This document shows, one piece after another, positions 24,085 through 51,726 of a stretch of DNA of 64,000 nucleotides. Position numbers and translations under genes: made by a program. How positions within the stretch are numbered: the stretch's first letter is position 1; every line of letters begins with the position of its first letter. The notes below the pieces were generated by a model, which searched no databases, had not been told where the DNA came from, and was given only the letters and a program-made list of their open reading frames with translations. The stretch comes from an uncultured Dehalococcoidia bacterium. GTDB lineage: Bacteria; Chloroflexota; Dehalococcoidia; Lucifugimonadales; UBA826. The stretch covers positions 1,076 through 65,075 of the forward strand of contig CAZRSW010000010.1 in assembly GCA_964602845.1 (NCBI GenBank). The letters run 5' to 3'.

Positions 24085-24339
24085 ATGAGAATAGAGATTG
24101 TCACCACAGAGGAAATTGTTTACTCCGGTAGTGCAGATGCCATTGTGGTCCCAGGTGTGGAAGGCCAGCTGGGTATACTTCCGCGACACGCCCCTCTGAT
24201 AACTGCAGTCGCCAAGGGCGAGGTGGTTGTGCGTGATCAAGGTCAAACTACAACCCTATTGCTCTCTGGAGGGTTTATGGAAGTTTTTGAAGATGTCGTA
24301 ACCATATTAGCTGATAGTTCTACGGGGATGGTTGAGTAA
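24085..24339 (+). CDS. atpC: F0F1 ATP synthase subunit epsilon (N-terminal beta-sandwich only)
   Basis: 84-aa ORF with GQLGILPRHAPLIT and GGFMEV motifs. It ends right after the beta-sandwich domain. Confidence 0.8.
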   Translation: MRIEIVTTEEIVYSGSADAIVVPGVEGQLGILPRHAPLITAVAKGEVVVRDQGQTTTLLLSGGFMEVFEDVVTILADSSTGMVE

Positions 24340-24442
24340 TTTTTGATACCGTATTCTGTGTATTATTTAACGAATTTCCGAGGATAACTTAGGAGCTTCC
24401 TTGTTTCTCCTGTCGGGACGTTGGAATTTTGCGAAGATGTTC

Positions 24443-24472
24443 TTGACTTGAATTTACGTGGATTGCTAAAAT
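24443..24472 (+). promoter_or_regulatory. candidate promoter with extended -10
   Basis: TTGACT (24443-24448), 18-nt spacer, TGcTAAAAT (24464-24472). It lies ~80 nt upstream of the citrate synthase ATG. Confidence 0.45.
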
Positions 24473-24554
24473 TGGGGGGATTTGTCGTCAAAAGGGGGGA
24501 GGTTAGGTGGTTGCCTAGGTAGCAGGCATATTACGTATAAACTGGAGGAAATTC

Positions 24555-25694
24555 ATGGTTGATGGGAAGGCTACTCTCCATAGGGGTTTAAGGGAAGTTT
24601 ACATAGATCGGACAAAGTCGAGTTTCATTGATGGTAAAGTCGGCAAACTCTTGTACCGTGGATACAACATTGATGATTTGGCGCAGAACTGCTCTTTTGA
24701 AGAAACAGTTTATTTGGTAATGAATGGGGATCTCCCAACTAGGCAGCAGCTGGAAAACTTTGATGAAGAGTTAAAACGGAACAGAAATGTCTCTGAAGAC
24801 ATAGTTCAGATCATAAATATCATTAAGGATGCCCATCCCATGGATGTGCTTAGGACGGCGATCTCTGCGATGGCTGCCTTCGACCCTGATGTGAATGATA
24901 ATTCAAAGGAAGCGACTTTGAGGAAGGGTATGCGTTTGACCGCCCAGGCTCCTAGTATTGTGGCGATGCACGCAAGGATCAGAGACGGAAAAGATCCTAT
25001 TCTACCTGATTCGAATTTGGGCCTTGCGGCTAATTTTCTGTACATGTTGTTTGGGGAGATTCCTCATCCCGAAGATGCTAAATTGCTGGATAGGGACTTT
25101 GTGCTTCATGCCGAACATGGTCTCAACGCCTCCTCTTTTGCTGCTAGGGTCTCTGCATCTACTGAGGCAGATCTTCACTGTGCAATCACTACCGGGATTT
25201 CGGTATTGAAAGGACCATCTCACGGAGGTGCAGCCGAATCTGTAATGCAGATGTCACTAGATATTGGAAGTGAGGAAAATGCTGAGAGTTATGTAAAGGA
25301 TACCCTTGGTAGTGGGGGAAGAATTATGGGTTTTGGGCATAGGGTATACAGAGCGGTTGACCCGCGATCGCTGCATCTTCAGGATGATCTCAAGGAACTC
25401 GGCTTGAGAAAGAACCAACCGAAATGGTACTCAATACTGTTGAAGGTGGTTGAAGTTATGCAGCCGTATGCGAGGAGAGGTATATGTCAGAATGTAGACT
25501 TTTTTTCGGGTGCGATGTATTACCTTCTTGATATACCTGATGACTTGTTTATATCAATATTTGCTATGGGAAGAGTGCCGGGATGGACGGCTCAAGTTGT
25601 CGAACAACTTGAACATAATATCTTATTGAGACCGAGGCTCTTATATGTTGGGGAAATGGATCGTACATTCGTTCCGATAGATGAGAGGGTATGA
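24555..25694 (+). CDS. gltA: citrate synthase (citrate/2-methylcitrate synthase family)
   Basis: 379-aa ORF with HAEHGLNASSF, GPSHGGA, GFGHRVY and NVDFFSG motifs. Confidence 0.9.
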   Translation: MVDGKATLHRGLREVYIDRTKSSFIDGKVGKLLYRGYNIDDLAQNCSFEETVYLVMNGDLPTRQQLENFDEELKRNRNVSEDIVQIINIIKDAHPMDVLRTAISAMAAFDPDVNDNSKEATLRKGMRLTAQAPSIVAMHARIRDGKDPILPDSNLGLAANFLYMLFGEIPHPEDAKLLDRDFVLHAEHGLNASSFAARVSASTEADLHCAITTGISVLKGPSHGGAAESVMQMSLDIGSEENAESYVKDTLGSGGRIMGFGHRVYRAVDPRSLHLQDDLKELGLRKNQPKWYSILLKVVEVMQPYARRGICQNVDFFSGAMYYLLDIPDDLFISIFAMGRVPGWTAQVVEQLEHNILLRPRLLYVGEMDRTFVPIDERV

Positions 25695-26024: not shown

Positions 26025-27167
26025 GTGACAGCCGTATCTTTAGTGAGTGAGCTTATCAGGGAAAGGATTCGAAGGGATGGTAGAGTCCCTTTCAATGTTT
26101 TCATGGACCTTGCCCTATATTCACGAGATGGGTATTACCAAGATAGCCAGTTTCTGGGTTCGAATCGGGATTATTACACTAGCCCCAAAGTCCATCCTAT
26201 TTTTGGTATGTTGATGGCGATTCAACTGTGGGTCCTTTGGTGCCATCTAGGTAAGATCTCTAAGTTTCCTATAATTGAGCAGGGTGGTGGAGATGGGCAC
26301 TGGGCAGAGGATATCCTATCTTTTGCATCTATTGTATCTCCCGAGTTTGGTGAGGCGTTGGAATATGTGCTCATAGATCGGCATATTGTGATTGACACAC
26401 CCAATAATTTGAATCATTTAATAGCAAATAACATACCTTTGTTGGGCCAGAACGGAGTAGTTATTTCTAATGAATTGTTAGATGCTTTTCCTTCAAAGCT
26501 TTTTGAGATAAGAAATGGACGTCCTCTGGAGGTCTACGTGGGTCTAAATAAGGAAGACCAATTTGTAGAAATCTTGGATATTCCCGAAACAATTGTATTG
26601 GAACGAGCTCTATCCGAAATAAACGTTATGGAATTAGAGGGATATAGAGGTGGCTATAATACCGGTTTGGATAGCTGGGTAAATAATGTATCAGACGCTT
26701 TGAAAAGTGGGTTCGTTATTACGATCGACTATGGATACGATAGAGAGGTTTATTACTCAATGAATAAATCTAATCGTTTATTCCAGACGTATTACAAACA
26801 TGTCGATGGTGGTAGCCCTTATGAAAGAGTTGGGGATCAAGATATGACAGCACATATAAATTTTGGTGAATTGATTGACTTGGGAAGACTAGGAGGGTTA
26901 TCGCCGATTTATTATGGCACGCAAGCTGATTGGCTGATGCGGTTGGGTTTTCGTGACTTATATAATAGCTATATAGATAGATTACCTGAGTATAAGACTC
27001 GCACAGTGCGTTCAAGGGCTCTTATAGACTCAAATGGACTTGGTGGATTCAAGGTTCTAATTCAAGAGAAAGATACGGAACTGAAGAATGAATGTTTGTT
27101 ATTTTATAAAGACCTGAGGTTCTCGGATTGGGATCTCTTGCCCCTAGATAGTCGTTATTTGGTATAG
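26025..27167 (+). CDS. class I SAM-dependent methyltransferase (COG1565/NDUFAF7-like)
   Basis: 380-aa ORF with a GTG start. It has FMDLALY..DGYY, YYTSPKVHPIFG and VISNELLDAFP motifs. Confidence 0.8.
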   Translation: MTAVSLVSELIRERIRRDGRVPFNVFMDLALYSRDGYYQDSQFLGSNRDYYTSPKVHPIFGMLMAIQLWVLWCHLGKISKFPIIEQGGGDGHWAEDILSFASIVSPEFGEALEYVLIDRHIVIDTPNNLNHLIANNIPLLGQNGVVISNELLDAFPSKLFEIRNGRPLEVYVGLNKEDQFVEILDIPETIVLERALSEINVMELEGYRGGYNTGLDSWVNNVSDALKSGFVITIDYGYDREVYYSMNKSNRLFQTYYKHVDGGSPYERVGDQDMTAHINFGELIDLGRLGGLSPIYYGTQADWLMRLGFRDLYNSYIDRLPEYKTRTVRSRALIDSNGLGGFKVLIQEKDTELKNECLLFYKDLRFSDWDLLPLDSRYLV

Positions 27168-27542
27168 GGATGGGGTTATTTGACTGAGTGCACGGTTTAT
27201 TGGGCAGTCAGGCTGCAGTATTAGGGTATGCTGTGTGTCCGTGGTTATAAATAAAACCTGTGTGTGTAACCATCCCATGTTATGGACGGACAGATCGACC
27301 TCCAACCGCCTATCGGCTGCCCAAAGGCTCAACGATATTGATCTATTCGAAATGACATTCTGTTTTATGGTGTTGACGAATGGATAATGGCGGGCAAAGT
27401 GGTAAGAGAATTCTCCCGTGGTCTTATGTAAGTCATACCTCTTTCAAGCAGGTGTGAAGGTCCAGGCTTGCCAAACAAAATGCTGTTGATGTCACATCCA
27501 GGGATATTTTGATAGTGAATGGAAAACTTTTGTTAAGGGGTC

Positions 27543-28013
27543 TTAAATATTAGCTATTTCGGCTAATATATCCCTCGGATCTAGATCAGTTGCATTATCA
27601 TATATCTTTGAGAACCTTACAGTGCCTTGAGTGTCTATTATTATTATTGCTCTTTTGGGGGTGCCGCGCTCGTTGTCAAAAACACCATATGCTTTAGAGA
27701 CATCTCCATGTGGGTAAAAATCTGAGAGTATAGGATATGGGATTGACCCGAGAGATCCTCCGAAGGCTACCTGAGATGGTCTAGAATCACAGCTGATACC
27801 CAGAACCTGGGTATTCTTATCCTCGAAACCTGAATTGTGAATTCGGAAAGAGGATACTTGGTGTGTTCAACCACCTGTGAAGGAATATATGTGAAATGAA
27901 AGCACTACATTCTTTTCACCAGCATACTTATCAAGCCGGATAGGATCTCCATTGTGTGCCGGCAGTTCAAATCCAGGTGCTTTTGATCCGATTTTAATCA
28001 AAGTATCCACCAT
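27543..28013 (-). CDS. peroxiredoxin (AhpC/TSA, Bcp/PrxQ-like) with in-frame TGA at the peroxidatic position; candidate selenoprotein, or else a pseudogene
   Basis: AGGAGG lies 4 nt before the ATG at 28013. It is a single frame of 156 codons with one TGA at 27867-27869 in the motif SFTGG[TGA]THQ (family FTxxCTxE). Prx similarity is present on both sides of the TGA, and the frame ends at TAA 27543-27545. Confidence 0.6.
27818..27856 (-). promoter_or_regulatory. SECIS-like mRNA hairpin downstream of the in-frame UGA
   Basis: The hairpin begins 10 nt after the UGA. UAUCCUC pairs with GAGGAUA (7 bp), followed by an internal loop, then CC/GG plus GAAU/AUUC with an A bulge. The apical loop is UCACA. 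Confidence 0.45.
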
Positions 28014-28136
28014 GTACCTCCTGTTTATTCGTGGGGGAGTCGTTTTACAACGGATATCGTACCTTATCTAAATGGTATTAGCCATAAATATAGAAGGGAG
28101 TTTCTCCTTGTTGATCTCAGGATGTATTCCTCCTGT

Positions 28137-28514
28137 TCAAGCGGATATACCATCTTTAAAGGTTGCTATAGCACGGATGTGTTCATCAGGAAATTTCATT
28201 GCACAGTTCATGGTATTGATAGATAAATGCGTGGCCCCCAAGGCCTTCCATTCTTCGACATCACGCAACATTTCTCTAGATGGTAAGTCATTATAGTTAA
28301 CCCAACTGTCTATTTTTCTACCCCGTTCATGCAGATACATAGCAAGATTGTCCAGTAGCCTGTTTCTTGTACAATCCGGTTTCCTGTTGGTATCCAACCA
28401 TCGCCTATTTTTGTGATAAGTATCCCTAATAAATGAAAGATTATGGAATTGAGCTGACGGATGTGGGATAACAGAAACAATCCGATTAGCAGGGGATATT
28501 ATATATAAAAACAT
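28137..28514 (-). CDS. hypothetical protein; C-terminal part resembles the C-terminus of LLM oxidoreductases (possible gene remnant)
   Basis: 125-aa ORF starting 10 nt after the tRNA-Thr 3' end with no RBS. The tail SREMLRDVEEWKALGATHLSI...DEHIRAIATFKD resembles LLM C-termini. Confidence 0.35.
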   Translation of the reverse strand: MFLYIISPANRIVSVIPHPSAQFHNLSFIRDTYHKNRRWLDTNRKPDCTRNRLLDNLAMYLHERGRKIDSWVNYNDLPSREMLRDVEEWKALGATHLSINTMNCAMKFPDEHIRAIATFKDGISA

Positions 28515-28523
28515 TTCTATTTA

Positions 28524-28598
28524 TGGAGCCAACGGGCGGATTTGAACCGCCGACCTGCTGTTTACGAAACAGCTGCTCTGCCCCTGAGCTACGTTGGC
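28524..28598 (-). tRNA. tRNA-Thr (anticodon CGU)
   Basis: Manual cloverleaf: GCCAACG/CGUUGGC acceptor, GCUC/GAGC D stem, GCUGU-UUCGUAA-ACAGC anticodon arm, GGCGG-UUCAAAU-CCGCC T arm, encoded CCA. Confidence 0.9.
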
Positions 28599-40393: not shown

Positions 40394-41146
40394 ATGGTGC
40401 GGTTTGAAATATACGCCTTTCGATGTGGAACGTTAAGTAGCATGAATGATTATCCGGATTGGATGAAAGCTGTCGAACAGACCTATGTAGTTAAGTTTCC
40501 CAAGCAGCATCTAGCCACTTTTGGTACGACAAATATAAATTATTATGTGGTTACTGAGCCAATATATACAGCTATTGATCCTGAGAAAAAAGAACTTGAG
40601 GGGGTTATACGTAAGGGACGGGTTATAGCAGAAAAACCAGCTCTTATAACCCCCAGGTATGCTATGAATTTGAGTGGTTTCAGTGACGACGCATATGATT
40701 ATATGAAACGCGCAGCTCAAATATACGGGCCCAATAGCCCAGGTATCCTCTACAAGTATAGAAAAGAGGAAGGGAACTTGGATGTGGTCAGTGGTATACC
40801 TCAGGAGATTGCATGGAATATTAGTAATGAATTGGACAGGAAGAAGGACAATTTATCTGTTGTTATGGTTGGCATTGACGAATTTTGGGATGTAGCCCTA
40901 CTTAAATTTATATATGAGTTCACTTCATCTTCCATCTCATACAACACCCGTGAGTTTGATTCTTCTGGTTTGATGAATCCGATAGCATCTTCTGGGGGTA
41001 TTCCTAAGGCTGCCGTTAACCAGATAGAAGACATGTTCAGATCGGTTCAGAAAGGCGGTAGTGTTGATACTCTTAAGGATGAACTAGATAAGTGGGGGAT
41101 ATTTGAGCACTATGAAGAACGATTTCTGGATCTTTTCAGGGGTTGA
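40394..41146 (+). CDS. hypothetical protein
   Basis: 250-aa ORF with no motif I can assign. The real start is probably the internal MNDYPDWMK. Confidence 0.5.
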   Translation: MVRFEIYAFRCGTLSSMNDYPDWMKAVEQTYVVKFPKQHLATFGTTNINYYVVTEPIYTAIDPEKKELEGVIRKGRVIAEKPALITPRYAMNLSGFSDDAYDYMKRAAQIYGPNSPGILYKYRKEEGNLDVVSGIPQEIAWNISNELDRKKDNLSVVMVGIDEFWDVALLKFIYEFTSSSISYNTREFDSSGLMNPIASSGGIPKAAVNQIEDMFRSVQKGGSVDTLKDELDKWGIFEHYEERFLDLFRG

Positions 41147-50215: not shown

Positions 50216-50758
50216 TTATCCTTGTTTTTCTAATACTACCGAATTTTCCATTTGCTTTAGGGGGACTTGCCAATATCTTTGCAACAATCGATTCGTTTGT
50301 TTCTTTGTATGGCGTACAAAATCATTTTTCATATAGAACGTAACTGCCCATGTCGCATCTTGCCATGTGCCAACAAGCAACCTAGAGTTCCTATTCATTT
50401 TAAATAAATGTTGTAACAACGCTTTTCCTATACCTATTCCTTGGTAATTAGACAGTGTATAAGCATGCCTTATTAAAGTGACATCTTCTACTTCTTGGAA
50501 TCCCATTACCCCGACTAGTATATTGTCTTTATCGTAGCCGAATATACGAACCCCATTGTCAAATTCATGAATCATCTCTTGCTCTCGCATGTATGGTTCT
50601 TTCCAGCAACTGTCCGGGATGACCCCTTTATATTTTGAAGCAGCATTGTTAATCACGTAGATGATTTGATGAATGTCTTCTTTTGTATATTCAGATATCA
50701 TGAAAACTAAGTATAGGTTTTGAGAATTGATTTTTCCATTAGAATTACTATTTGACAA
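50216..50758 (-). CDS. GNAT family N-acetyltransferase
   Basis: 180-aa ORF with a TTG start. The likely real start is the ATG at 50701 (MISEYTKEDI). It has an acetyl-CoA motif region (YQGIGIGKALLQH). Confidence 0.8.
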   Translation of the reverse strand: MSNSNSNGKINSQNLYLVFMISEYTKEDIHQIIYVINNAASKYKGVIPDSCWKEPYMREQEMIHEFDNGVRIFGYDKDNILVGVMGFQEVEDVTLIRHAYTLSNYQGIGIGKALLQHLFKMNRNSRLLVGTWQDATWAVTFYMKNDFVRHTKKQTNRLLQRYWQVPLKQMENSVVLEKQG

Positions 50759-51011
50759 CCAATCGCATCACAAAATAAATGTGATGAATACCCGAGGGCT
50801 TGTTGGAGAACAAATTGTGGGAAGGGAAACCATTTAGATAGCCCTCCAAGCAACGATTCGGAGGATTATTCGTTTCAGGTGAAATCAACCATGCTGCATC
50901 TAAAGCTTGTGCTAGTACACCCAAGACTAATCGTTCTAGCTCAGGTGAGGAACGAGTGGTGTAGGGTTTTGTTAGAATACTAGCCTATCTATAAGTTTTG
51001 AGGAGGTAAAA

Positions 51012-51380
51012 ATGGCAGGAATAAATAGCAACGACTTTTCGTCCCCTGACGAAGTGATGGCATTTGATAAGGCAGAGATGAAGGTGGCTAATCTGGCTAA
51101 TATCAAAGTTGCTCGTGGTGTAATACAGCCAGGATGGAGTTGGTCTAGTTGTATGAAACCTGTGGTTGGCACTGAAAGTTGTGCGACTAGACACGTTGGT
51201 GTTGTTTTTAGCGGCTGCATGGTTGCTACTCACGACGACGGTACAGAAATGAAGCTGTGTGAAGGGGACGCCTATGTAATAGAACCCGGGCATGATGCAC
51301 GAGTTGAAGGAGACGAGGCTGTAATTATCTACGAGTTTAATACTGGGGCGATCGAACACTTTGCTGAATACTCCGAATAA
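51012..51380 (+). CDS. cupin domain protein
   Basis: 122-aa ORF with a strong GAGGAGG RBS and a small beta-barrel-type sequence (GDAYVIEPGHDARVEGDEAVIIYEF). Confidence 0.65.
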   Translation: MAGINSNDFSSPDEVMAFDKAEMKVANLANIKVARGVIQPGWSWSSCMKPVVGTESCATRHVGVVFSGCMVATHDDGTEMKLCEGDAYVIEPGHDARVEGDEAVIIYEFNTGAIEHFAEYSE

Positions 51381-51459
51381 ATATATGAGATTGAAGTGCC
51401 TAAGATATAGGGAGCAAATTTGAAGGCTATTCCATTTTTATATTCCTTATCCAAAGGAG

Positions 51460-51613
51460 GTTCCTATGCGTGTACAGAATGACAAATATGCGACACTATG
51501 ATCACAGAGAAAGCGTTTGTGCGATGAATGAGGAGTTTTGTGTCCCCATATTTATCCTAGAGCAAGAGTATGAAAAAACAGTGGAGCCTATAACCATAAC
51601 TTTTCCATCCTAA
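51460..51613 (+). pseudogene. 3'-terminal remnant of an enolase-superfamily gene (paralogous to 48596..49939)
   Basis: VPMRVQNDKYATL matches FPVRVKDGNYVTP, and ...ITFPS* matches ...ITFLP* of the intact gene. The remnant is broken by stops and frameshifts. Confidence 0.65.
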
Positions 51614-51726
51614 TAGTAGATATAAATAGAAACATGTTTGGTCACCTCCGGATTAAAGGTGACGACAATTAATTGACGGGTTAACGGATGAAAGATATTG
51701 ATTTTGATCAGTGGATAGGAGCCTAT
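51460..51726 (+). repeat. copy B of the diverged duplication (enolase remnant, spacer, start of intact apt)
   Basis: See copy A at 49784-50052. Confidence 0.75.

What the first reader, a model, noticed from the sequence alone, without database searches (positions are those of the whole stretch)
27543..28013. Unannotated peroxiredoxin gene with an in-frame TGA exactly at the peroxidatic-Cys codon (candidate selenoprotein)
On the minus strand an AGGAGG lies 4 nt upstream of the ATG at 28013. Reading straight through gives MVDTLIKIGSKAPGFELPAHNGDPIRLDKYAGEKNVVLSFHIYSFTGG-[TGA 27867-27869]-THQVSSFRIHNSGFEDKNTQVLGISCDSRPSQVAFGGSLGSIPYPILSDFYPHGDVSKAYGVFDNERGTPKRAIIIIDTQGTVRFSKIYDNATDLDPRDILAEIANI-TAA. 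Both halves are in the same frame and together make one complete ~156-aa AhpC/TSA (Bcp/PrxQ-like) protein. The TGA occupies the position of the catalytic Cys in the family motif FTxxCTxE. The ORF track misses the gene because the stop splits it. TGA is an ordinary stop elsewhere in the window (pyrF, DUF951, argG), so this is not genome-wide recoding. A Sec-containing peroxiredoxin (PrxU of Eubacterium acidaminophilum) and Prx-like selenoproteins from ocean metagenomes are established precedents. The alternative explanation is a recent TGT/TGC-to-TGA pseudogenisation.
Basis: partly seen in the sequence, partly recalled or inferred. Interest (0 to 1): 0.75.

Follow-up and report, generated by a model that had tools for sequence, protein, structure and literature searches.

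The report
Selenocysteine peroxiredoxin gene in SAR202
The in-frame TGA is real and almost certainly encodes selenocysteine at the catalytic site of a small AhpE-type peroxiredoxin of a marine SAR202 bacterium; the gene is genuine but unannotated, and it belongs to a selenoprotein family known since 2001-2005.

Summary
A 156-codon minus-strand reading frame (28013..27543) has one in-frame TGA (27869-27867). It matches Pfam AhpC-TSA at 7e-30. The TGA aligns with the peroxidatic Cys45 of M. tuberculosis AhpE.

The selenoprotein reading is strongly supported.
- 68 of 71 related marine metagenome loci (40-98% protein identity) carry TGA at the same codon.
- 60 distinct orthologue sequences have no other stop in 141 codons, and codon-position diversity is the same on both sides of the TGA.
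- A hairpin starting about 10 nt after the UGA is conserved, with compensatory changes at synonymous sites. A second hairpin follows it. Both are missing from the closest Cys-type relatives.
- TGA terminates 22 of 52 window genes, so the genome is not recoded.
- A distant TGA-type homologue sits next to a tRNA-Sec gene.

- The protein is AhpE-like (1-Cys type), not Bcp/PrxQ-like.
- It is not an equivalog of PrxU.
- The canonical Pro of PxxxTxxC is Ile.
- The Shine-Dalgarno spacer is 3 nt.

The Sec machinery (selA, selB, selC, selD) is not in the window or its flanks, and I could not check it in the rest of the genome.

Novelty is modest: Prx with a TxxU motif is a well-known marine selenoprotein family.

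The parts
27543..28013 (-). Complete peroxiredoxin gene of 156 codons plus TAA, AhpE-like, read through one UGA. The start may instead be the in-frame GTG at 28010.
   Evidence: Pfam AhpC-TSA 7e-30. (MtAhpE 1.4e-25). AlphaFold model of the 94%-identical orthologue P0001, pLDDT 94, TM 0.91-0.93 to MtAhpE.
28017..28022 (-). Shine-Dalgarno AGGAGG, 3 nt before the ATG at 28013 and 6 nt before the GTG at 28010.
   Evidence: Read directly from the sequence.
27867..27869 (-). UGA codon 49, the proposed selenocysteine codon at the peroxidatic position (FTGG-U-THQ).
   Evidence: Aligned to Cys45 of MtAhpE. TGA at the same column in 68 of 71 related metagenome loci.
27818..27856 (-). SECIS-like hairpin 1. 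Lower stem 27856-27850 pairs with 27824-27818 (7 bp). An internal loop follows. Upper stem 27846-27840 pairs with 27836-27829. The apical loop is CAC at 27839-27837. The first paired base lies 10 nt after the UGA.
   Evidence: Window fold -21 kcal/mol, z -2.1. The hairpin recurs in 51 of 54 orthologues. Lower stem is 88% paired, with 3 pairs showing compensatory changes at synonymous sites. Mean z is -3.4 in Sec-type against -0.3 in Cys-type homologues, p = 1e-7.
27796..27814 (-). Second conserved hairpin, AAUACCCAG-GUU-CUGGGUAUU (8 bp), over the codons for N-T-Q-V-L-G-I. Its role is unknown; it may be an auxiliary part of the recoding signal.
   Evidence: 94% of cells paired across 54 orthologues, with 2 covarying pairs (A-U to G-C, G-C to A-U). 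Only 5 of 8 pairs form in the four closest Cys-type relatives, against a mean of 7.5 of 8 in Sec-type.
28087..28114 (-). Weak sigma-70-like promoter match (TCAACA, 16 nt, TATATT) about 70 nt upstream of the start codon.
   Evidence: The match is 9 of 12, and the number of such sites in the region is no higher than in shuffled sequence, so this is only a candidate.
28524..28598 (-). tRNA-Thr(CGU) upstream of the gene. It is a synteny marker that shows the metagenome loci are true orthologues, not part of the mechanism.
   Evidence: The same tRNA lies 1-5 kb upstream of prx in 23 related loci.

Best explanation
This is an intact, expressed-type gene for a small (156-aa) AhpE-like peroxiredoxin of a SAR202-clade bacterium (Chloroflexota). 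Its peroxidatic residue is selenocysteine, encoded by UGA codon 49.

Proposed mechanism:
- When the ribosome reaches the UGA, the stem-loop that starts about 10 nt downstream acts as a bacterial SECIS element. It would recruit SelB-GTP-Sec-tRNASec, so Sec is inserted instead of termination (inferred, not shown).
- The enzyme would then reduce H2O2 or organic hydroperoxides through a selenenic-acid intermediate at U49. U49 is activated by the invariant T46 and R121.
- No resolving Cys is conserved, so recycling is probably by an external thiol or redoxin, as in 1-Cys AhpE (inferred).

Shown here: the gene anatomy; conservation of the UGA; coding constraint across the UGA; the conserved, covarying RNA structure specific to the UGA-type genes; the Prx fold; and the active-site alignment.

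Inferred: Sec rather than another residue; SelB dependence; the substrate; the reductant.
For: - The UGA sits at the peroxidatic Cys column of MtAhpE. T46 and R121 align with Thr42 and Arg116.
- 68 of 71 related marine metagenome loci (40-98% aa identity) have TGA there. The only TGY forms are a separate FTKGC clade at 46-50% identity.
- In 60 distinct orthologue sequences there is no other in-frame stop in 141 codons. Nucleotide diversity by codon position is 0.31/0.17/0.63 downstream of the TGA and 0.27/0.19/0.63 upstream. T46 and R121 are invariant.
- The downstream 107 codons have no start codon of their own in the window.
- For hairpin 1 plus hairpin 2, 83% of cells are paired against 36-47% for slid controls, with 110 compensatory cells against 11-54. 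C-G to U-A switches occur at third codon positions of Ser and Glu codons.
- The hairpin is specific to UGA-type genes: z -3.4 against -0.3, Mann-Whitney p = 1e-7. The closest Cys relatives pair only 1-4 of 9 lower-stem positions.
- The apical loop starts 23-31 nt after the UGA in the 51 orthologues that form the hairpin. This is within the 16-37 nt that I recall from the published bacterial SECIS model.
- TGA is the normal stop of 22 of 52 window genes.
- The orthologue at the syntenic site of a 1.49-Mb SAR202 contig also has TGA plus the hairpins, and the gene caller left it uncalled.
- A distant TGA-type homologue (41% identity, PxxxTxxU) lies about 120 nt from a tRNA-Sec gene.
- Prx with a TxxU motif is an established selenoprotein family: 43 genes in the Sargasso Sea (PMC1088965), 253 in GOS (PMC2398784) and 78 genomes (PMC5029168). 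Five independent Cys-to-Sec conversions have been inferred for it (PMC1794560).
Against: - No selA, selB, selD or tRNA-Sec was found in the 64-kb window, in the 1.5 kb to the contig end or 10 kb beyond the other window end, or within 10 kb of the orthologues. The rest of the genome could not be read.
- No other selenoprotein candidate turned up in about 740 kb of window plus related loci.
- No Rfam family matches the hairpin region, even at E <= 10.
- The predicted apical loop in the window is CAC, without the guanosine described as typical of bacterial SECIS loops (PMC1088965). Loop sequences vary between orthologues.
- Three orthologues (L065, L068, L073) keep the TGA but have a degraded hairpin 1, with MFE about -4 kcal/mol.
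- One orthologue cluster has TCA (Ser) in place of TGA.
- The canonical Pro of PxxxTxxC/U is Ile42.
Confidence: 0.9

Rival explanations
1. Recent pseudogene: a TGY-to-TGA nonsense mutation inactivated a Cys-peroxiredoxin gene in this genome.
For: A single-nucleotide change from TGT or TGC gives TGA. No Sec machinery is seen in the window.
Against: TGA sits at the same codon in 68 related loci down to 40% protein identity. No further stops occur in 60 distinct sequences, and purifying selection on codons is equal on both sides of the TGA. A conserved covarying hairpin follows the TGA.
Confidence: 0.01
2. UGA is a sense codon in this organism (genetic code 4 or 25: Trp or Gly). The gene would then encode a Trp or Gly at the active site.
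For: Public gene callers translated about 30 orthologue clusters with W at this position.
Against: TGA ends 22 of 52 long ORFs in the window. Among these are full-length Pfam matches such as argG, citrate synthase and ATP synthase alpha. The W is an artefact of code-4 gene calling on short contigs: P0007 equals L063/L074 and P0012 equals L067 when TGA is read as W. A Trp or Gly at the peroxidatic position would destroy catalysis while T46 and R121 stay invariant.
Confidence: 0.01
3. The UGA is recoded by the downstream structure to an amino acid other than Sec. One route would be Cys, through a tRNA-Sec-like tRNA-Cys(UCA) of the kind I recall being described for some bacteria (from memory; the attempt to read PMC5389517 failed). 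Another route would be structure-stimulated near-cognate read-through.
For: The Sec machinery was not observed. The window's apical loop lacks the typical G. The two-hairpin arrangement is not the textbook SECIS.
Against: Sec insertion is the general mechanism for a UGA at a redox Cys position followed by a hairpin in bacteria. Prx TxxU is an established selenoprotein family (PMC1088965, PMC2398784). A distant TGA-type homologue is adjacent to a bona fide tRNA-Sec (Rfam RF01852, 68 bits). Keeping a costly UGA brings no benefit if the product is simply the Cys form.
Confidence: 0.05
4. Translation simply stops at UGA. A 48-residue peptide is the product, and the downstream part is untranslated or made separately.
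For: This is how annotation pipelines treat the locus. Database entries of 99-101 aa start at an internal Met in some orthologues.
Against: The downstream 100 codons show the same 1st/2nd/3rd-position constraint as the upstream part. In the window there is no start codon giving an ORF of 40 aa or more downstream. Neither half alone forms a thioredoxin fold, and the catalytic Arg121 lies in the second half.
Confidence: 0.01

Closest known systems
Selenoprotein family 'Peroxiredoxin (Prx), TxxU motif' of Zhang, Gladyshev and co-workers (Sargasso Sea 2005, GOS 2008, genome surveys 2006-2016)
   Same: AhpC/TSA domain. Sec replaces the peroxidatic Cys in a T-x-x-U motif. A stem-loop lies directly downstream of the UGA. 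The family is abundant in marine metagenomes and has many Cys homologues (PMC1088965, PMC2398784, PMC5029168).
   Different: Those surveys define the family broadly (pfam00578 / COG1225) and do not assign it to SAR202. This clade is AhpE-like, has Ile in place of the motif's Pro, and carries a second conserved hairpin.
AhpE of Mycobacterium tuberculosis (Rv2238c), a 1-Cys peroxiredoxin
   Same: It is the best match by sequence (1.4e-25) and by structure (TM 0.91-0.93, rmsd 1.4-1.6 A over about 153 residues). The length is the same. The Thr/Cp/Arg triad aligns. There is no conserved resolving Cys: 19 of 60 orthologues have no Cys at all.
   Different: Identity is only about 32%. Sec replaces Cys45 and Ile replaces Pro38. 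It comes from a different phylum, and mycothiol or mycoredoxin recycling cannot be assumed.
PrxU of Eubacterium acidaminophilum (NCBIfam NF040737), the biochemically characterised Sec-peroxiredoxin
   Same: It is a peroxiredoxin with Sec at the peroxidatic position, and it is the top NCBIfam hit.
   Different: It scores 57 bits against an equivalog cut-off of 270. PrxU is a 233-position Prx1/AhpC-type model, so this is a different subfamily and probably an independent Cys-to-Sec conversion (five are inferred for Prx in PMC1794560).
Escherichia coli fdhF SECIS element (the textbook bacterial SECIS; from my own knowledge)
   Same: Both are hairpins inside the coding region that begin about 10-11 nt after the UGA, and both are required to coexist with the protein code.
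   Different: The window's apical loop is CAC rather than a G/U-containing loop, and the loop sequence is not conserved between orthologues. The upper stem sits on a long 7-9 bp lower stem. A second conserved hairpin follows 3 nt later. There is no Rfam match.

Membership tests
Peroxiredoxin (AhpC/TSA, Pfam PF00578) | Significant match to the family profile over its full length | tested here: met
   103.9 bits against a cut-off of 26, profile positions 1-123 of 124.
Peroxiredoxin (AhpC/TSA, Pfam PF00578) | Thioredoxin-type fold with the peroxidatic residue in the first turn of helix alpha2 | tested here: met
   The AlphaFold model of the 94%-identical orthologue P0001 has pLDDT 94.2. Residue 49 lies at the start of helix 47-58. 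Top PDB matches are AhpE chains with TM 0.91-0.93. The window protein itself could not be submitted because of the TGA.
Peroxiredoxin (AhpC/TSA, Pfam PF00578) | Catalytic Thr, peroxidatic Cys/Sec and Arg | tested here: met
   T46, U49 and R121 align with AhpE T42, C45 and R116. T46 and R121 are invariant in 60 orthologues.
Peroxiredoxin (AhpC/TSA, Pfam PF00578) | Pro of the universal PxxxTxxC/U motif | tested here: not met
   Position 42 is Ile, invariant in the clade (SFHI[YFH]SFTGGU). It aligns with the Pro of AhpE's PLAFTGIC motif.
Peroxiredoxin (AhpC/TSA, Pfam PF00578) | Peroxidase activity | not testable with these tools
   This needs an enzyme assay.
Bacterial selenoprotein (SelB/SECIS-dependent UGA recoding) | In-frame UGA aligned with a redox-active Cys of homologues | tested here: met
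   Cys occupies this column in P0045, P0048-P0050, P0064 and L109-L113, and it is AhpE Cys45.
Bacterial selenoprotein (SelB/SECIS-dependent UGA recoding) | UGA conserved among diverged orthologues, with protein-coding constraint on both sides | tested here: met
   68 of 71 loci have TGA. There are 0 extra stops, and codon-position diversity is equal upstream and downstream.
Bacterial selenoprotein (SelB/SECIS-dependent UGA recoding) | Stem-loop immediately downstream of the UGA, supported by covariation | tested here: met
   The apical loop starts 23-31 nt after the UGA in the 51 orthologues that form the hairpin.
Bacterial selenoprotein (SelB/SECIS-dependent UGA recoding) | Guanosine in a small apical loop (bacterial SECIS consensus, PMC1088965) | tested here: inconclusive
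   The window's MFE loop is CAC, with no G. Some orthologues have a G in the first loop positions (GGCUA, GCAAA, GCACA) and others do not (UCA, ACACA). No Rfam family matches.
Bacterial selenoprotein (SelB/SECIS-dependent UGA recoding) | selA, selB, selD and tRNA-Sec present in the same genome | tested here: inconclusive
   They are absent from the window, from the contig flanks that could be fetched, and from within 10 kb of the orthologues. The remaining genome could not be read. A distant TGA-type homologue in another phylum lies next to a tRNA-Sec.
Bacterial selenoprotein (SelB/SECIS-dependent UGA recoding) | Selenium actually incorporated at the UGA position | not testable with these tools
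   This needs 75Se labelling or mass spectrometry.
PrxU (NCBIfam NF040737 equivalog) | Score at or above the curated equivalog cut-off | tested here: not met
   57.1 bits against 270.
   NF006960 (Bcp) scores 49.8 bits against a cut-off of 140, and PrxQ scores 38.5 against 260. All AhpE chains rank above the Bcp structures by sequence and by fold. There is no Cys at Cp+5.
AhpE subfamily (1-Cys peroxiredoxins) | Closest similarity to AhpE and no conserved resolving Cys | tested here: met
   C75 is present in only 36 of 60 orthologues, and 19 have no Cys at all. A phylogeny against all Prx subfamilies was not made.

The most novel reading that the evidence does not exclude
The SAR202 clade is one of the most abundant bacterial groups of the dark ocean, and no paper in the searched library connects it with selenium. 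It may depend on selenocysteine through a clade-wide, syntenic AhpE-type 1-Sec peroxiredoxin. The recoding signal would be an unusual two-hairpin element without the canonical apical-loop G. This enzyme may be the only, or nearly the only, selenoprotein that justifies keeping the Sec machinery. It may serve to remove peroxides made by the clade's many flavin monooxygenases (speculative).
Probability: 0.3. Interest if true: 0.5.

Novelty: new member of a known kind. Interest (0 to 1): 0.4.

Why it matters
- Annotation: this gene is systematically missed. It was left uncalled on a 1.49-Mb SAR202 contig. Elsewhere it is split into fragments of about 100 aa, or mistranslated with Trp by code-4 gene calling in about 30 public protein clusters. 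The catalytic residue of a widespread marine antioxidant enzyme is therefore wrong or absent in databases.
- Ecology: it implies that SAR202 bacteria decode Sec and so need selenium. Selenium is a trace-element requirement that the genome papers I checked for this clade do not mention.
- Mechanism: it gives about 60 natural sequence variants of a coding-region SECIS, with clear covariation and a second conserved hairpin. That makes a convenient test set for what a non-enterobacterial SelB recognises.
- It does not change what is known about selenoprotein families as such.

Tried and rejected
- Rfam found only two tRNAs at gathering thresholds in the whole window. It found nothing at E <= 10 on 27740-27900, so no curated SECIS model applies.
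- An alternative register for the upper stem (i+j = 77) was rejected: 29% of cells paired, against 63% for i+j = 76.
- I looked for a neighbouring SelW-like selenoprotein gene, since Prx/SelW pairs are reported in GOS. Six-frame translation of 27100-27545 and three-frame minus-strand translation of 28014-28530 showed none.
- I scanned for other UGA read-through genes. In the window only prx qualifies. In about 740 kb of window plus related loci only the Prx cluster is conserved; the other clusters are frame artefacts.
- Pfam on about 40 window ORFs, plus synteny-based annotation of the ATP-synthase block, found no SelA, SelB or SelD.
- Walking out of the window on the source contig (ENA ERZ23495044 scaffold_136, 125.6 kb) gave 1.5 kb to the contig end on one side and 10 kb on the other, with no Sec genes.
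- An exact look-up of the neighbouring 569-aa transporter found nothing.
- The genome-contig scan with the single protein used peptide patterns specific to the window. It found only relatives at 47% identity or less, so close SAR202 genomes were probably missed rather than absent.
- Literature searches for SAR202 with selenocysteine or selen* returned only reference-list hits in the two SAR202 genome papers I opened, and no listed title or abstract concerned selenium use.

Full report
**1. Observation**

On the minus strand, 28013..27543 reads as one 156-codon frame. It has a single internal stop, TGA at 27869-27867 (codon 49), and a terminal TAA.
- AGGAGG lies at 28022-28017, 3 nt before the ATG. 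An in-frame GTG at 28010 would give a more usual 6-nt spacer.
- The mechanical ORF list contains only the 48-aa N-terminal piece. It lists no ORF of 40 aa or more for the downstream 107 codons, so these have no usable start of their own.
- With Cys at codon 49 the protein matches Pfam AhpC-TSA over the whole profile (7.3e-30, 103.9 bits).

**2. What protein it is**

The best solved relative is the 1-Cys peroxiredoxin AhpE of M. tuberculosis (1.4e-25).
- The alignment puts codon 49 on the peroxidatic Cys (FTGIC / FTGGU), T46 on the catalytic Thr and R121 on Arg116.
- The Pro of the universal PxxxTxxC motif is Ile42 here.
- An AlphaFold model of the 94%-identical orthologue P0001 is confident (pLDDT 94.2, pTM 0.91), and residue 49 sits at the start of helix 47-58.
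- The model's top twelve PDB matches are all AhpE chains (TM 0.91-0.93, rmsd 1.4-1.6 A).
- In NCBIfam the top hit is the PrxU equivalog, at 57 bits against a cut-off of 270. Bcp and PrxQ models are also far below their cut-offs.

The protein is therefore AhpE-like. It is neither Bcp/PrxQ-like nor a PrxU orthologue.

**3. Is the TGA conserved?**

A protein search found two groups of close relatives.
- About 30 clusters of full-length relatives (53-94% identity) carry W at the TGA column.
- About 15 clusters of roughly 100 aa begin just after it.

The W is an artefact. P0007 and P0012 match loci L063/L074 and L067 exactly when TGA is read as Trp.

A scan of metagenome contigs returned 73 related loci. 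In 71 the codon could be read. It is TGA in 68, at 40-98% protein identity, and TGT or TGC in 3. These three, together with L110 (Cys read from its translation; the codon was not extracted), form the FTKGC clade at 46-50% identity.

Many loci share a tRNA-Thr(CGU) just upstream, as the window does, so they are true orthologues.

Over 141 codons, 60 distinct orthologue sequences contain no other stop.
- Diversity at codon positions 1/2/3 is 0.31/0.17/0.63 downstream of the TGA and 0.27/0.19/0.63 upstream.
- T46 and R121 are invariant.
- C75 is present in only 36 of 60, and 19 sequences have no Cys at all.

The gene is therefore translated through the UGA. It is under purifying selection as a whole and has no conserved resolving Cys.

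**4. The RNA signal**

In the window a hairpin begins 10 nt after the UGA.
- It has a 7-bp lower stem (UAUCCUC/GAGGAUA), an internal loop, an upper stem and the apical loop CAC.
- Its energy is -21 kcal/mol, with z = -2.1.
- The same architecture folds in 51 of 54 distinct orthologue sequences.

On the gap-free alignment A3 the lower stem is 88% paired. Three of its pairs switch between C-G and U-A, or between A-U and G-C. The switches fall at third positions of the Val, Ser, Phe, Glu and Glu/Asp codons. The upper stem is 63% paired and uses many pair types.

A second hairpin, ACCCAG-GUN-CUGGGU over the T-Q-V-L-G codons, is 94% paired, with two covarying pairs.

Overall, 83% of cells are paired against 36-47% when partners are slid. 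There are 110 compensatory cells against 11-54. An alternative register for the upper stem is worse.

The structure is specific to the UGA-type genes.
- Mean z is -3.4 for 54 Sec-type sequences and -0.3 for 14 Cys-type homologues (p = 1e-7).
- The four closest Cys-type relatives pair only 1-4 of 9 lower-stem positions and 5 of 8 hairpin-2 positions.

Caveats:
- No Rfam family matches.
- The window's loop has no G.
- Loop sequences are not conserved.
- Three orthologues (L065, L068, L073) have a weak hairpin 1.

**5. Alternatives**

- Genome-wide recoding is excluded: TGA terminates 22 of 52 long ORFs in the window.
- A recent pseudogene is excluded by section 3.
- Termination at codon 49 is excluded by the coding constraint downstream and by the lack of an internal start.
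- Insertion of some residue other than Sec cannot be excluded by sequence alone, but it has no positive support.

**6. Sec machinery and organism**

The window holds only tRNA-Thr and tRNA-Arg. Pfam annotation of its ORFs shows no SelA, SelB or SelD. The ATP-synthase block was annotated by synteny.

AtpD is 89-91% identical to proteins named SAR202 cluster bacterium, Chloroflexi or Dehalococcoidia. The gene content fits SAR202: luciferase-like monooxygenases, enolase-superfamily enzymes and acyl-CoA dehydrogenases.

The source contig is ENA ERZ23495044 scaffold_136 (125.6 kb). The 1.5 kb and 10 kb that could be fetched beyond the window contain no Sec genes.

A 1.49-Mb SAR202 contig has the orthologue, with TGA and hairpins, at the syntenic site. 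The gene caller left it uncalled. The rest of that contig could not be read with these tools, so the machinery test stays open.

Indirect support comes from other phyla. TGA-type homologues occur in genomes of several of them (L004, L007, L011, L013, L043). In L013 the gene (VFYPFAFTPVUTSQ) lies about 120 nt from a tRNA-Sec gene (ARAGORN and Rfam RF01852, 68 bits).

**7. Comparison with what is known**

- Peroxiredoxin with a TxxU motif is a long-established selenoprotein family: PrxU of E. acidaminophilum, 43 genes in the Sargasso Sea, 253 in GOS, and 78 genomes (PMC1088965, PMC2398784, PMC5029168, PMC13188914).
- Five independent Cys-to-Sec conversions are inferred for Prx (PMC1794560).
- Chloroflexi are listed among the phyla with selenoproteins.
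- No paper in the library links SAR202 with selenium.

This gene is a new, well-supported member of a known kind. Its modestly new features are the AhpE-type scaffold, Ile in place of the motif Pro, the SAR202 host and a second conserved hairpin.

**8. Verdict**

Interest is moderate (0.4). It is a correct and useful annotation catch, with some ecological and mechanistic side value, but it is not a new kind of system.

Noticed in passing
L013 3001-3453 (+) and 3578-3667 (-): In a Candidatus Aquilonibacter MAG a distant TGA-type peroxiredoxin (VFYPFAFTPV-U-TSQ, 41% identity) lies about 120 nt from a tRNA-Sec gene (ARAGORN; Rfam RF01852, 68 bits).
   Followed up: yes
L123 1091-1549 and L124 679-1137 (protein P0015): One orthologue cluster (31 member sequences, seen in two independent assemblies) has TCA (Ser) in place of TGA. 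Over the stretch read downstream of that codon, both hairpins included, it is otherwise identical to the TGA-bearing L055. It looks like a natural Sec-to-Ser variant, which should be catalytically dead.
   Followed up: partly
Proteins P0001-P0030 (public ENA, MGnify and JGI gene calls): About 30 public protein clusters of this family carry Trp at the Sec position, apparently because short contigs were gene-called with genetic code 4. Others are stored as C-terminal fragments of about 100 aa. This is a systematic database artefact for selenoproteins.
   Followed up: yes
L004, L007, L011, L043 (GTDB genomes: Chloroflexota SP301, Caldilineaceae, two Terriglobales): More distant peroxiredoxin homologues in other lineages also have TGA at the peroxidatic column. 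L004 shows a similar hairpin 13 nt after the UGA.
   Followed up: partly
L065, L068, L073 (A3 alignment columns 19-59): A small orthologue subclade (FRLNN) keeps the TGA, but its hairpin 1 is degraded (two lower-stem mismatches, MFE about -4 kcal/mol) and hairpin 2 is weakened too. This is unexplained.
   Followed up: no
window 28137-28514 (-): A 125-aa ORF between tRNA-Thr and prx has no Pfam or NCBIfam match. In the syntenic SAR202 contig L121 the tRNA-Thr-to-prx interval holds an aldo-keto reductase gene instead, with a TrmI-like methyltransferase gene just downstream of prx and a GDPD gene just beyond the tRNA, so this neighbourhood has been rearranged.
   Followed up: partly
window 24339-24555, compared with L121 11684-12331: The gene with Rex-type Pfam domains (Put_DNA-bind_N, CoA_binding) found between atpC and citrate synthase in the related SAR202 contig is absent from the window.
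   Followed up: no
window 50758-51688: A 930-bp stretch without any long ORF lies inside a lower-GC region (0.39-0.40 over 48-56 kb). Its only plausible ORF is 51012-51380 (+), 122 aa, which I did not characterise.
   Followed up: no
window 40394-41146 (+): A 250-aa ORF upstream of two SPFH/Band-7 genes has no Pfam match (E <= 1e-8) and no NCBIfam match.
   Followed up: no
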